A stretch of DNA of 55,724 bases, taken from assembly GCA_023512635.1 (NCBI GenBank), contig JAILZF010000001.1, forward strand, positions 1 to 55,724, written 5' to 3'. The notes below the pieces were generated by a model that was not told the origin of the DNA, did no database searches, and worked only from the letters and a program-made list of their open reading frames with translations. This document shows positions 49,497 through 52,704 of the stretch, in pieces (position 1 is the first letter of the stretch; every line of letters begins with the position of its first letter). A program made the position numbers and the translations under genes. Source of the stretch: Alicyclobacillus sp. Lineage in GTDB: Bacteria > Bacillota > Bacilli > Alicyclobacillales > Alicyclobacillaceae.

Positions 49497-52360
49497 CGTG
49501 ATGACCTCCTCTGGCGGGACCATCCGCGGCTGCCGCAGCCCCATCCTCCCGCAAGGGTGCGGTCATGGGCGTACCGTCGGCCTGCGGCCCGGCCCAATCT
49601 GTCCCAAGCGCGTGCCATGCCGCCGCCAGCTCAGCCCCGTCCAGCCGCTGCAAACGCCGCAGCGGCGAGCGGTCCCAACGCCGTTCCAAGTGACACACCG
49701 CTTGCAAGCGGCAGTGCTGGCAGGCCGTCTCCTGCCCCAGTTGGTACGGTGCAATGCGATTATCACCGCGCCGTATCGCCTGGCCGATGGCCTCCGCGTG
49801 CTGCAAGGCCCGGCGCAACATCCCGCGCCAGACCTCAGGCGGCAACGCTGGGGACCGCTGGCTCCACTGGCCGTTTTGGTTGAACACGCGGGCAAACAAC
49901 TCGGTCTCACCGCCTGCCAGCAACCGTTCATCCAACCACCCGACCCACGCCTGCACCGCCGCCAATGCTCCGCGGGCGCGCAGTTGACGCAGGGCACGGG
50001 CACGGGCAGCCGTCGCGGCCTCAGGGATAAGCACGCGGGCCAACGACCGGCCTGTCGGAATGTAAAATATACCAGCTGGCTCAGCCGGCTGTTGCAGCCA
50101 CCGCTCGGCCGTCGCCCACAGGGCCACGGCGTACAGCGGCAACTGCAGCTGCAAGCCGTGTTCCAGCTTGCTTTGATCCCACTTGAGAGCCAGGCTGCTC
50201 TTGTAGTCTATCACCCGGAACACCGCTTGCCCGCCGTCGCGCACCACGTCCACCCGGTCAATGCGGCCGCGCAACTGCAGCGTTCCCCCGTCCGCTAAGC
50301 GCCGGACGAGCGGCGGCCAGGCGGAGTGGCCACTGCCGAACGCCACTTCCGTCGCCAACGGTTCATAGCGTCCCCAGCGGACCTGGCGGGTCAGTGCCAC
50401 AGCGACCTTCTCCACCACCGCTAGGTCTGCCTGTGCCTGCTGCCATCGGCTGCGGCGGCGGCGCCAGAAGGCCGTGCGCGGGTCATGCAGCAACTGCGTG
50501 TACACCTGCCGTGCCGCGGCGGCTGCCGCCTCATCCGTCAGTTGCCGCCAAGCCGCCACGTCTGCGGCCTGGGTTTGCACAAACGCCTGGACCGCGGCGT
50601 GCAGCAACGTACCGCGGGCCGCGCGGTCCGCCTTGGGAAGCACCTCTTCGCTGGCCCGCAGGCCATAGCGGGCGAAGTGCTGAAAGGGGCAAGCGGCAAA
50701 CGACTCCAGTTGATGGACGTGGACGTGCAGCGGATCGCCAAACAGGCGCTGGGCCACGGCGGCAGACAGCGGCCGGGCCTTGGCACGCTGGCCAATCCCG
50801 GCCAGGGCTTGCCGCAAGGCCGCGTGCGCTGCTGGCTGGTGCGCAAACCAGTCGAAGACGGCCAAGGCCGTGGCCGGCAAGGGGGCGCCTGCGCGCGTGG
50901 CAGCCACGCTGTGGACCAACGCCGACAGCGCGGCGGGCGGCGACCACGCCCCTGGTTGCAAGTCCCCTGGATGATCGCGCCACCCTTCACTGCTGAACCA
51001 CCCTGGTGGCAGGTGGCTGCGCAGGCGCTCCCAGGCGCGCGCGGGTTGCGTGGCCCGGCCGTCAGCGGCCACGAGCGGGTAACTCACGCACAGCCGCTCA
51101 CTGGCGCGCGTCAATGCGAGATACACCGTTTCCCGCTGGCAAAGCTGCACGTCTTCCCCCGTCAGGCCGAGCGGTTGGCCAAACAACCGGGCAAAGAGCA
51201 GCCGCTCCTCGTCGTGCAGCAAACCGTCCGTGTGCACGCGCGGCGGCAACTGGCCATCGGCTGCACCCATGACCCACAACCCGCGTACGCGCAATCCGCG
51301 TGCCCGCGACACCTCAGTCACCAGCACCTCGTCCACGCCCGCCGGGATGGTGACCAACGGCTGGTGCGTCAAGTCGTCTTGCACCAATTCAAATAGAAAC
51401 GACCGGCGAAGCAGTGCCTCTGGCCAGGTTTCTGTCAAGTCGTCCAGCAGCGCCAGGATGCGCTGCCAGGCCTGTTCGTGCAGGGTAGCCTCAGCCGGCC
51501 GCTGGGCCTCTGTCGCCGCCAGCATCCACCCGGCCACGCGCTGTTTGACCGCGGCGGCCTGCAGCAGGGCCCACAGGGACTCGCCTAAAGCGCGCGGCGT
51601 CAGCTCTGCCGCCGCCACCGCCGCCCAAAACGACGCCAGCACGGCCGCTACCTGACGGCGCAAACCGTCTGCCCGCGCGTCGGCTGCCACCGCGTCCGCG
51701 AGATAGGCCGGGTCAGCCTCCTCCTGGGCAAACGTCCACGCTGCAGCCTGCGTCCAGGTGTCTATACCGGCCACTTCATAGCGGCGCAGGTACAGCTCCA
51801 ACCAGTCAGCATCCGCCTCGGCCAGTTGGCAAAACGACGTCTTGAGCAGACTGGCCATGGCAGCAGTGGACGCTTGGTCTTCTGCGCTCACCATGGCAGC
51901 GAGCAAAAACTTAGCCAATGGATGGGAGGAGAGCAAGGGGAAGTCTTCCAGGCAAACCGGCAACCCGTGCCGTTCAAAGCTGTCCCGCAAGGGACCCGCG
52001 TAATCGGCCAACGACGGGACCAGCACCGCGACGTCACGGTAGCGCCAGCCAAGTTCGCGCACATGGCGGGCGATGGCGCGGGCCACCCCTTCGGCCTCGG
52101 CGCGGATGTTTTGCGCCGTCGCCAGCGTCACCGGCGGCTCCGCCGGCGGGGGTGGCGGCAGCGGGCCGGCAAACACAGCCGCTTCCACCGCCCGCACCAG
52201 GGCAGGGCGCTCCGTGTCAGGCAACGTTCGCACCTCCACCTGCAGGCCGCACGCTGCGGCGTGAGCCTGAATCTGCTCAACCAACCACAACGCCTGCGGT
52301 GCGTAGACGGCAGCCGACTCGCTGACCTGTTCCAGGCGCTGCAACAGCCACCCGGTTGGG
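49477..52360 (-). pseudogene. addB: addB (helicase/nuclease subunit B) lacking its 5' third
   Basis: C-terminal nuclease/Fe-S features are present (FAACPFQHF, IDYKSS, CQHCRLQAVC). So is the central conserved block NIRAEAEGVARAIARHVRELGWRYRDVAVL. The N-terminal Walker-A domain is missing, and homology stops at a codon-usage break near 52360. Confidence 0.7.
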
Positions 52361-52551
52361 CGGCCCGCCGGCGTCCGCTCCGGCTGCTGCAGGGCGGTCC
52401 CGTGGCTCCAGAGGCGCAGCGCCTGGCCGTAGTCGTGACGCTGCCAGGCGGCGTGGCCGGCGGAATAGAGGTCGGCGGGCGAGGGGTGGGCGCCGAAGGC
52501 CAGCCACTGGCCGATCAGGATCCCGAGCACCAGCGTGAGCGCCCGCCGCAT
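52361..52551 (-). other. N-terminal fragment of an unrelated secreted/TPR-like protein, joined in frame to truncated addB
   Basis: ATG 52551 gives MRRALTLVLGILIGQWLAFGAHPSPADLYSAGHAAWQRHDYGQALRLW, which reads as a signal peptide plus a TPR-like motif. Its codons are almost all G/C-ending, unlike addB. Confidence 0.35.
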
Positions 52552-52704
52552 GCCAAGCGGCGGAGGCAAGAGGCGTACCGACGCAGAGACACCCGAGAAC
52601 GCGCTCGGCCCGTGCAAGCCGGGACCGCTGTTCCGGCAACGCGTTGCGGGCCGCCGCGGGCGCGTAGTAGGCTCGGTCCCGTCGACCGGCGAGAGGAGAC
52701 CTCG

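What the first reader, a model, noticed from the sequence alone, without database searches (positions are those of the whole stretch)
52300..52560. Abrupt codon-usage break decapitates addB and joins it to an unrelated N-terminus
**Codon usage.** I read the minus strand downward from ATG 52551.
- At first the codons are almost all G/C-ending: ATG CGG CGG GCG CTC ACG CTG GTG CTC GGG ATC CTG...
- At about 52365-52342 the style switches to that of the rest of the window: CCA ACC GGG TGG CTG TTG ... GAA ... GCT ... GCA ... TTG TGG TTG GTT GAG CAG ATT.

**addB content.**
- AddB-like sequence starts only at this point. It corresponds roughly to the last two thirds of B. subtilis AddB.
- The conserved block ...EGVARAI..LGWRYRDVAVL and the C-terminal Fe-S cysteines are present.
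- The N-terminal Walker-A domain is absent. In its place are about 60 aa that look like a signal peptide plus a TPR motif.

**Either side of the break.**
- Genes to the right (52.36-55.7 kb) use AAG, TTC and CTG almost exclusively.
- Genes to the left use AAA, TTT, TTG and CAA freely.

**Interpretation.** This is either the edge of a horizontally acquired island that disrupted addB, or a chimeric join or misassembly. No transposase, integrase, tRNA or inverted repeat is visible at the joint.
Basis: partly seen in the sequence, partly recalled or inferred. Interest (0 to 1): 0.7.

Follow-up and report, generated by a model that had tools for sequence, protein, structure and literature searches.

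The report
Chimeric contig joining two bacterial phyla
The codon-usage break is real, but it most likely marks where a metagenome assembly stitched 3.3 kb of Rokubacteria (Methylomirabilota) DNA onto the end of a 52-kb Alicyclobacillus-family contig, so the "decapitated addB fused to a new N-terminus" is very probably an artefact, not a gene.

Summary
GC3 jumps from about 0.76 (window 1-52385) to 0.95-0.99 (52386-55724). Synonymous-codon choice differs strongly, for example TTT/TTC 70% against 3%, p=3e-15.

- **Left side.** This is Alicyclobacillaceae DNA. addA and addB are followed by genes syntenic with A. macrosporangiidus, and the closest AddB (85% identity) comes from an Alicyclobacillus MAG.
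- **Right side.** This is 97-99% identical in DNA to a soil MAG contig (L001) and collinear with it. Its genes recur in Rokubacteria/Methylomirabilota genomes.
- **The "unrelated N-terminus".** It is the first 55 codons of a conserved 241-aa Rokubacteria gene (TPR plus aspartyl protease). That gene continues intact in L001.
- **AddB.** About 255 N-terminal residues, including the Walker A motif, are missing. Three relatives have full-length addB with conserved upstream neighbours that are absent here.
- **Context.** There is no tRNA, integrase or repeat at the joint. The window is a whole contig and the foreign piece is its last 3.3 kb. No independent copy of the junction was found.

Best explanation: an inter-genome chimeric assembly (about 0.85). 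A real, very recent inter-phylum transfer is not excluded (about 0.1). Interest is low.

The parts
45519..49544 (-). addA (AddAB helicase-nuclease subunit A) of the Alicyclobacillaceae part. The true start is probably ATG 49496.
   Evidence: TIGR02785 addA_Gpos scores 793 bits, above the cut-off of 708. Pfam finds UvrD-helicase, UvrD_C and PDDEXK_1. The N-terminus aligns with L081 AddA from MAGTWSNQQQ.
49477..52385 (-). The 3' 79% of addB (codons 56-1024 of the fused ORF). It corresponds to about residue 256 onward of full-length Alicyclobacillus AddB. GC3 is about 0.78.
   Evidence: TIGR02773 covers model positions 276-1142. PDDEXK_1 is found. It is 85% identical to P0002 from an Alicyclobacillus MAG. 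Residue mapping is. dN/dS against L081 is 0.15.
52385..52386 (.). Breakpoint between the two source genomes.
   Evidence: blastn identity to L001 (98.85%) stops at 52386. MAFFT and the codon-register comparison agree.
52386..52404 (-). 19 nt next to the breakpoint that are identical to the Rokubacteria-type parent. Codons 51-55 are also 67% like the Alicyclobacillus relative in register. This may be a shared k-mer or microhomology.
   Evidence: The last mismatch to L001 is at 52405. Identity to L081 is 0.33 for codons 45-50, 0.67 for 51-55 and 0.60-0.80 beyond. The reading as microhomology is inference only.
52387..52551 (-). The first 55 codons (hydrophobic signal/anchor segment plus the start of the TPR region) of a Rokubacteria 241-aa TPR + aspartyl-protease gene, cut off at the breakpoint.
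   Evidence: The native full-length gene lies in L001 at 1217->495. Pfam finds Asp_protease_2 and TPR_2 in it. The same divergent gene is present in 22 of 80 related loci.
52552..52704 (.). Divergent intergenic region of the Rokubacteria-type segment, with a GAGAGGAG ribosome-binding site ahead of ATG 52705.
   Evidence: There are 6 mismatches to L001 across 52386-52704. The sequence is shown.
52705..54561 (+). DUF169 + URO-D/MtaA-like fusion gene (618 aa), GC3 0.95-1.00.
   Evidence: Pfam finds DUF169 (1.4e-60) and URO-D (8.1e-60). It has 241 relatives in genome contigs, nearly all Rokubacteria/Methylomirabilota. Against L001 it differs at 17 synonymous and 2 non-synonymous codons.
54601..54951 (-). 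RRM-type RNA-binding protein gene (116 aa), part of the Rokubacteria-type segment.
   Evidence: Pfam RRM_1, 8.2e-24. It is collinear with L001.
55124..55724 (-). 3' part of a sigma-54-dependent response-regulator gene. It runs off the contig end.
   Evidence: Pfam finds Sigma54_activat, AAA_lid_14 and HTH_8. The full-length gene is in L001, where the contig continues for another 2.3 kb.

Best explanation
The window is a whole metagenome-derived contig and an inter-genome chimera.

- **The two pieces.** Positions 1-52385 come from an Alicyclobacillaceae (Bacillota) genome. Positions 52386-55724 come from a Rokubacteria/Methylomirabilota genome.
- **How the join arose (inferred).** The assembler, or a chimeric read or library molecule, joined the two at a short GC-rich stretch compatible with both sequences, about 15-19 nt at 52386-52404. 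On the Alicyclobacillus side, this spot lies in a poorly conserved, about 77-80% GC linker of addB. A related MAG assembly also breaks there.
- **Why it looks like one gene.** The join happens to be in frame, and a sequence this GC-rich has few stop codons. The 5' end of a Rokubacteria TPR/aspartyl-protease gene therefore reads straight into codon ~256 of addB and mimics a 1024-aa fusion gene.
- **Biology.** Nothing biological is implied. In the organism, addB is most likely full length and preceded by the family's usual MFS-Dus-TM2 neighbourhood.

Shown: the two origins, the exact breakpoint, and the truncation of both genes. Inferred: that the join was made in silico or in the library rather than in a cell.
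For: 1. **Composition and codon use.** Both change abruptly, and only here in 55.7 kb.
2. **Right side.**
   - It matches L001 at 98.85% (52386-54562) and 96.8% (54592-55724), and is collinear with it.
   - L001 continues past the breakpoint with its own intact 241-aa gene.
   - 73 of the 80 best loci for the DUF169-URO-D gene are labelled Rokubacteria/Methylomirabilota.
   - 22 of them carry the same divergent TPR-protease gene.
3. **Left side.**
   - AddB is 85% identical to that of an Alicyclobacillus MAG.
   - The addB-addA-MFS-DUF309 order matches A. macrosporangiidus.
   - Three relatives (L082, L083, L084) have full-length addB preceded by MFS-Dus-TM2-PepS11-MntR-FAA-Dsb-hemE-hemH. None of these neighbours is in the window.
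4. **Nature of the cut.**
   - Both genes are cut mid-ORF.
   - No tRNA, integrase, transposase or flanking repeat is present, and there is no plasmid or phage match.
5. **Position on the contig.** The window equals the whole contig, so the foreign piece is its terminal 3.3 kb and stops inside a gene.
6. **State of addB.** The retained 969 codons form an intact ORF under purifying selection (dN/dS 0.15 against L081). The partner addA is intact.
7. **Uniqueness.**
   - The fused protein forms a cluster of one sequence on one contig among 5.8 billion clusters.
   - The junction 36-mer is absent from JGI metagenome contigs.
8. **Assembly weak point.** The related MAG contig L081 ends at the position equivalent to window 52419, 33 nt from the joint.
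9. **Prior.** Inter-species translocations are reported as the most frequent misassembly type in benchmark metagenome assemblies (10.1101/2021.06.22.449514).
Against: - No reads, coverage or assembler information were available, so the join itself was not shown to be artificial.
- The shared stretch at the joint, at most about 19 nt, is at the low end of what a de Bruijn assembler needs (k-1 of at least 20 at k=21). Its presence in the true Alicyclobacillus parent is only inferred from an 85% relative.
- The missing 5' part of addB was not found on another contig.
- Absence of the joint from other collections is weak evidence, because close relatives of the left-hand organism are nearly absent from them too.
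Confidence: 0.85

Rival explanations
1. A real, very recent inter-phylum horizontal transfer. At least 3.3 kb of Rokubacteria DNA would have been inserted into an Alicyclobacillaceae chromosome by illegitimate, microhomology-mediated recombination. This would delete the first ~255 codons of addB and whatever lay upstream, leaving an AddAB-defective cell.
For: - The atypical composition and the donor-like codon use are what an unameliorated island would show.
- A possible 15-19 nt microhomology at the joint fits illegitimate recombination.
- Both taxa occur in soil metagenome assemblies (record titles). Co-occurrence in one sample is inference.
Against: - There is no integrase, transposase, tRNA or repeat.
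- Both the donor and the recipient gene are cut mid-ORF.
- Identity of 97-99% to an environmental Rokubacteria contig means essentially no time has passed since the supposed transfer.
- The second border is not seen because the contig ends.
- The junction is unique to this contig.
- The addB remnant and addA show no decay.
- A related MAG assembly breaks at the same spot without any foreign DNA.
Confidence: 0.1
2. A physically chimeric DNA molecule made in the laboratory and then assembled faithfully. Possible sources are a ligation or PCR/MDA template-switch chimera, or a chimeric long read. This is a variant of the artefact explanation, with a different step at fault.
For: - Short microhomology at the joint is typical of template switching.
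- The shared stretch may be too short for a k-mer-graph join.
- All the evidence that the two sides are different genomes applies equally.
Against: - A single chimeric molecule rarely determines a consensus contig unless coverage is very low.
- Nothing in the sequence distinguishes this from an in-silico join.
Confidence: 0.04
3. A native lineage-specific AddB variant, either with a secreted or membrane-anchored TPR N-terminus in place of the Walker A domain, or an addB with an alternative start.
For: - The reading frame is continuous from ATG 52551.
- A gene caller accepted a 1017-aa product (P0001).
Against: - The 55 N-terminal codons are DNA-identical, apart from 3 mismatches in 165 nt, to the start of an unrelated Rokubacteria gene.
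- The closest AddB (85% identity) has different sequence upstream of the joint.
- All other relatives carry the ADDB_N domain (PF21445).
- Codon usage changes at the joint.
Confidence: 0.01

Closest known systems
Inter-species translocation misassembly (chimeric contig) in metagenome assemblies
   Same: - The two flanks come from different genomes and meet at a sharp breakpoint.
- The compositional break is sharp, and the short foreign piece sits at the contig end.
- The breakpoint cuts genes, with no mobile-element signature.
- This class is reported as the commonest error type in CAMI benchmark assemblies (10.1101/2021.06.22.449514).
   Different: - The defining read-level evidence (clipped reads, a coverage step, discordant pairs) could not be examined.
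- The shared sequence at the joint appears very short, at most about 19 nt.
AddB of Gram-positive AddAB helicase-nuclease (TIGR02773; B. subtilis AddB, PDB 3U44 chain B)
   Same: - It has the C-terminal PD-(D/E)XK nuclease domain, the 1+3 cysteines of the Fe-S cluster and the central UvrD_C-like region.
- addA lies immediately downstream, overlapping by about 20 nt.
   Different: - It lacks the first ~224-256 residues, which hold the Walker A motif and the ADDB_N domain PF21445.
- It scores 374 bits against a cut-off of 904.
Genomic island / recent horizontal gene transfer border
   Same: There is an abrupt shift in GC3 and codon usage, and the genes' nearest relatives are in another phylum.
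   Different: - No integrase, tRNA target or direct repeats are present.
- The border lies inside ORFs on both the donor and the recipient side.
- Only one border is visible.
- The DNA is near-identical to a free-living donor population.
Rokubacteria TPR + retropepsin-like aspartyl-protease gene (Pfam Asp_protease_2 / gag-asp_proteas with TPR_2), divergent from the DUF169-URO-D gene
   Same: The first 55 codons and the 153-nt upstream region are almost identical to L001, with 6 mismatches in 319 nt.
   Different: The window holds only codons 1-55 of 241. The TPR_2 repeat matched by Pfam (residues 61-90) and the protease domain are absent.

Membership tests
AddB (TIGR02773 addB_Gpos) | The whole-protein score reaches the curated equivalog cut-off (903.7 bits). 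| tested here: not met
   The score is 374.5 bits and only model positions 276-1142 of 1159 are matched.
AddB (TIGR02773 addB_Gpos) | N-terminal helicase-like domain with a Walker A motif (ADDB_N, PF21445). | tested here: not met
   There is no PF21445 hit, and the precomputed Pfam domains for P0001 list only PF12705. Relatives P0003-P0008 all have it. The junction maps to residue ~256 of P0003.
AddB (TIGR02773 addB_Gpos) | C-terminal PD-(D/E)XK nuclease domain with the four Fe-S cysteines. | tested here: met
   PF12705 scores 1.7e-35 over residues 612-954. The cysteines in FAACPF and ETACQHCRLQAVCH were read directly. The protein aligns to 3U44_B residues 270-1145.
AddB (TIGR02773 addB_Gpos) | Encoded immediately upstream of addA in one operon. 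| tested here: met
   addA at 45519-49496/49544 scores 793 bits on TIGR02785, above its cut-off. The order is the same as in L081-L084.
Inter-genome chimeric contig (misassembly) | The two flanks belong to different genomes or taxa, each collinear with its own relatives. | tested here: met
   The left flank matches Alicyclobacillus. The right flank matches Rokubacteria/Methylomirabilota at 97-99% DNA identity to L001.
Inter-genome chimeric contig (misassembly) | A sharp compositional or codon-usage discontinuity at the breakpoint. | tested here: met
Inter-genome chimeric contig (misassembly) | Read-level signature: a coverage step, clipped reads, and no concordant pairs or long reads across the joint. 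| not testable with these tools
   No reads or coverage data are available. The contig's record is masked.
Inter-genome chimeric contig (misassembly) | The junction is not reproduced in independent assemblies. | tested here: met
   The fused protein is a singleton cluster on one contig. The junction 36-mer has 0 matches in metagenome contigs. This is weak evidence, because relatives of the left-hand organism are also nearly absent.
Genomic island acquired by HGT | Integration machinery or target hallmarks (integrase or transposase, tRNA, flanking direct or inverted repeats). | tested here: not met
   No tRNA occurs in the whole window. No repeat flanks the joint. The right-hand genes are metabolic or regulatory.
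Genomic island acquired by HGT | Both borders are embedded in recipient-genome sequence. | not testable with these tools
   The contig ends at 55724 inside the sigma-54 regulator gene, whereas L001 continues.

The most novel reading that the evidence does not exclude
The joint is real. An Alicyclobacillaceae cell very recently took up at least 3.3 kb of Rokubacteria (Methylomirabilota) chromosomal DNA and integrated it by microhomology-mediated illegitimate recombination, without any mobile element. This destroyed the Chi-recognition subunit of its own AddAB recombination machine. It would be a snapshot of raw inter-phylum transfer before any selection or amelioration.
Probability: 0.08. Interest if true: 0.5.

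Novelty: not a real feature. Interest (0 to 1): 0.08.

Why it matters
- **Data quality.** The contig should be split at 52385/52386 before any use. The last 3.3 kb would contaminate an Alicyclobacillaceae bin with Rokubacteria genes. The 1017-1024-aa "PD-(D/E)XK nuclease family protein" with a signal peptide and TPR start is a phantom that has already entered a protein collection (P0001).
- **Method.** A codon-usage break read by eye located a chimeric joint to within about 40 nt.
- **If the joint were real.** It would be a rare direct view of element-independent inter-phylum transfer, but nothing here favours that.

Tried and rejected
- **Exact-product look-ups found nothing.** The fused ORF, P0001, addA, the DUF169-URO-D gene and the RRM gene are not on record, so the source sample and assembler could not be identified.
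- **The missing addB 5' part was not found.**
  - The 259-aa N-terminus of P0003 gave no hit at all, not even P0003 itself. This shows a limit of the word index.
  - A 5-sequence N-terminal profile gave only three distant fragments.
  - One of them, P0016, led to L084. L084 is another full-length but frameshifted addB locus with the family's usual upstream synteny. It is only 30% identical to the window's AddB.
- **Plasmid and phage collections gave nothing specific.** Only generic 65-70% similarity to sigma-54 regulators appeared.
- **Tetranucleotide comparison with external references did not discriminate.** The Rokubacteria and Alicyclobacillus references are all high-GC. Only correlation with the contig's own left part was informative.
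- **A native AddB variant with a new N-terminus is rejected.** The 55 codons are Rokubacteria DNA.
- **A mobile element at the joint is rejected**.
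Full report
**1. The observation**

The minus-strand ORF that starts at ATG 52551 runs to the stop at 49477 (1024 codons).

- 53 of the first 55 codons end in G or C, against 761 of the remaining 970 (Fisher p=4.6e-4).
- A two-state likelihood scan on GC3 alone puts the change point at codons 64-73 (52359-52332), with a log-likelihood gain of 8.6.
- The phase-specific GC plot shows third-position GC of about 0.80 along addB. It reaches 0.93 at 52330-52569 and 0.95-1.00 in the next gene to the right.
- A crude gene table for the whole window gives GC3 of 0.68-0.79 for every gene left of 52.4 kb, and 0.88-0.94 for the two ORFs to the right. The first of those two ORFs is a long open frame that starts inside the addB region.
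- Synonymous codon choice differs sharply, left versus right: TTT/(TTT+TTC) 70% vs 3% (p=2.9e-15); TTG vs CTG 46% vs 2% (p=2.2e-13); ATT 47% vs 0%; AAA 44% vs 0%; CAA 37% vs 0%.
- Tetranucleotide correlation with the contig's own left part is 0.86-0.97 in every 2-kb bin, and 0.78 in the last bin.

The break is therefore real, strong, and the only one in the window.

**2. AddB content**

- NCBIfam TIGR02773 (addB_Gpos) matches only model positions 276-1142 of 1159, equal to protein residues 115-969. The score is 374 bits against a cut-off of 904.
- Pfam finds PDDEXK_1 but no ADDB_N domain.
- B. subtilis AddB (3U44 chain B) aligns from its residue 270.
- In an alignment with full-length Alicyclobacillus AddB proteins, the junction falls at residue ~256 of 1220. 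About 255 residues are missing, including the Walker A motif (GHAGTGKST in P0003).
- The conserved block AEGVARAIARHVRELGWRYRDVAVL and the cysteines (FAACPF; ETACQHCRLQAVCH) are present.
- addA follows and is complete (793 bits on TIGR02785, above its cut-off).

**3. The left side**

- The nearest AddB is P0002, 85% identical. It is a partial protein from an Alicyclobacillus sp. MAG (GCA_023512335.1, contig L081). Next come A. macrosporangiidus (49%) and other Alicyclobacillus proteins, all about 1180-1220 aa with the ADDB_N domain.
- The genes beyond addA are syntenic with A. macrosporangiidus: MFS 71%, DUF309 58%, and a hypothetical protein 56% identical.
- Three relatives (L082, L083, L084) have full-length addB preceded by the same block: MFS, Dus, TM2, peptidase S11, MntR-like repressor, FAA hydrolase, disulfide isomerase, hemE, hemH. 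None of these genes is in the window.

**4. The right side**

The genes are as follows.
- A DUF169 + URO-D/MtaA-like fusion gene (52705-54561, +).
- An RRM RNA-binding protein gene (54601-54951, -).
- The 3' part of a sigma-54-dependent regulator gene (55124 to the contig end, -).

A scan of species-representative genomes with the fusion protein found 241 relatives. Of the best 80, 73 are labelled Rokubacteria, Rokuibacteriota, Methylomirabilota or Methylomirabilia, at 81-90% amino-acid identity.

The best locus, L001, is a 6.9-kb soil MAG contig binned as "Binatia".
- It matches window 52386-54562 at 98.85% DNA identity and 54592-55724 at 96.8%, in the same gene order.
- Within the fusion gene, the two sequences differ at 17 synonymous and 2 non-synonymous codons.

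**5. The joint**

- Identity to L001 is continuous down to window position 52386 and then stops dead. From there L001 continues with its own ORF.
- That ORF is a 241-aa protein: a hydrophobic N-terminus, TPR repeats and a retropepsin-like aspartyl-protease domain (Asp_protease_2 3.8e-17, TPR_2 8.4e-8).
- The same gene sits divergently upstream of the DUF169-URO-D gene in 22 of the 80 related loci.
- The window holds only its first 55 codons.
- From codon 56 on, the window is homologous to the Alicyclobacillus contig L081, at 60-80% DNA identity in codon register.
- Codons 45-50 are at chance level against L081 (33%).
- Codons 51-55 are identical to L001 and also 67% like L081. The last mismatch to L001 lies at 52405.
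- I read this, as inference, as a 15-19-nt stretch compatible with both parents.
- There is no tRNA in the window and no direct or inverted repeat at the joint. The right-hand genes include no integrase or transposase. Plasmid and phage collections show only generic similarity to sigma-54 regulators.

**6. Interpretation**

The window's length equals the length of the only contig that carries the fused protein (55,724 bp). The window is therefore a whole contig and the foreign segment is its last 3.3 kb. The segment ends inside a gene that continues in L001.

The following points fit an inter-genome chimeric contig.
- The flanks come from two phyla.
- The right flank is near-identical to a free-living population of the second phylum.
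- A gene is cut on each side.
- There is no mobile-element hallmark.
- The foreign piece is terminal on the contig.
- The addB remnant is undecayed and selectively constrained (dN/dS 0.15 against L081).
- The product is a singleton.
- The junction 36-mer is absent from metagenome contigs.

Inter-species translocations are described as the most frequent error class in benchmark metagenome assemblies (10.1101/2021.06.22.449514).

The in-frame join has a one-in-three chance. It stays open because this frame has no stop codon for 1505 codons in such GC-rich DNA.

The related MAG contig L081 ends at the position equivalent to window 52419, 33 nt from the joint. This suggests that the stretch just upstream in this lineage's addB is hard to assemble. 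The neighbouring sequence is 77-80% GC and lies in a poorly conserved linker. The cause is not established.

**7. What is not shown**

- I could not see reads, coverage or the assembler.
- I could not find the missing addB 5' part on another contig.
- A real, extremely recent inter-phylum insertion by illegitimate recombination therefore remains possible. I give it about 0.1.
- A native AddB variant with a new N-terminus is effectively excluded, because the 55 codons and the 153-nt upstream region are Rokubacteria DNA.

**8. Comparison with known things, and verdict**

- The left part is an ordinary Gram-positive-type addAB operon whose addB is truncated by the contig joint. It fails the AddB equivalog cut-off and lacks the ADDB_N domain only for that reason.
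- The right part is an ordinary piece of Rokubacteria chromosome.
- The joint matches the known class of inter-species chimeric contigs on every criterion that could be tested here.
- It is not a real biological feature. Interest is low (0.08).

Noticed in passing
window 52705-54561 (+); L001-L080: This is a 618-aa fusion of DUF169 with a URO-D/MtaA-CmuA-like methyltransferase domain. It is very conserved: 81-90% amino-acid identity across the best 80 of 241 matching stretches, which are almost all Rokubacteria/Methylomirabilota MAGs. Its function is unknown. In 22 of 80 loci a TPR + aspartyl-protease gene lies divergently upstream.
   Followed up: partly
L001, L041, L054, L061, L064, L070, L076: Seven of the 80 loci carrying the Rokubacteria-type gene at 81-100% identity are labelled as other taxa: Binatia, Acidoferrum, Nitrosocosmicus, Nitrosotalea, Limnocylindria and Deferrimicrobiaceae. 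All seven are 'SMAG' TPA assemblies. They are probably misbinned contigs, so the 'Binatia' label of L001 should not be trusted.
   Followed up: no
L081 position 1 (equivalent to window 52419): The closest relative's contig (Alicyclobacillus sp. MAG GCA_023512335.1, 3999 bp) ends inside addB, only 33 nt from the position of the window's chimeric joint. Two independent assemblies fail at the same spot. The cause is unknown: it could be a GC-rich linker, a repeat, or an inserted element.
   Followed up: partly
L084 10001-13509: On a 94-kb ENA contig of a more distant relative, addB is called as two ORFs (171 aa and 1005 aa) that overlap by 25 nt. This is probably a frameshift, either a sequencing error or a pseudogene. 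The upstream synteny is the same as in Alicyclobacillus.
   Followed up: no
L082 3190-4593: A group II intron-type reverse transcriptase (RVT_1 + GIIM) lies 5.4 kb upstream of addB in A. macrosporangiidus. It is absent from the otherwise syntenic L083.
   Followed up: no
window 54563-54591 vs L001 3229-3400: The intergenic region between the DUF169-URO-D gene and the RRM gene is 29 nt in the window but about 172 nt in L001. This indel sits between two otherwise 97-99% identical sequences.
   Followed up: no
window 49477-49544: The longest addA ORF (ATG 49544) would overlap addB by 68 nt. Comparison with L081 AddA suggests the real start is ATG 49496 (MAGTWSNQQQ...), which gives the same 20-nt overlap as in L081.
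   Followed up: partly
window 49477-53994 (-): The addB frame stays open for 1505 codons, running antisense through the DUF169-URO-D gene. This is a side effect of its GC3 of about 97%, not a gene. It shows how easily phantom long ORFs arise here.
   Followed up: yes
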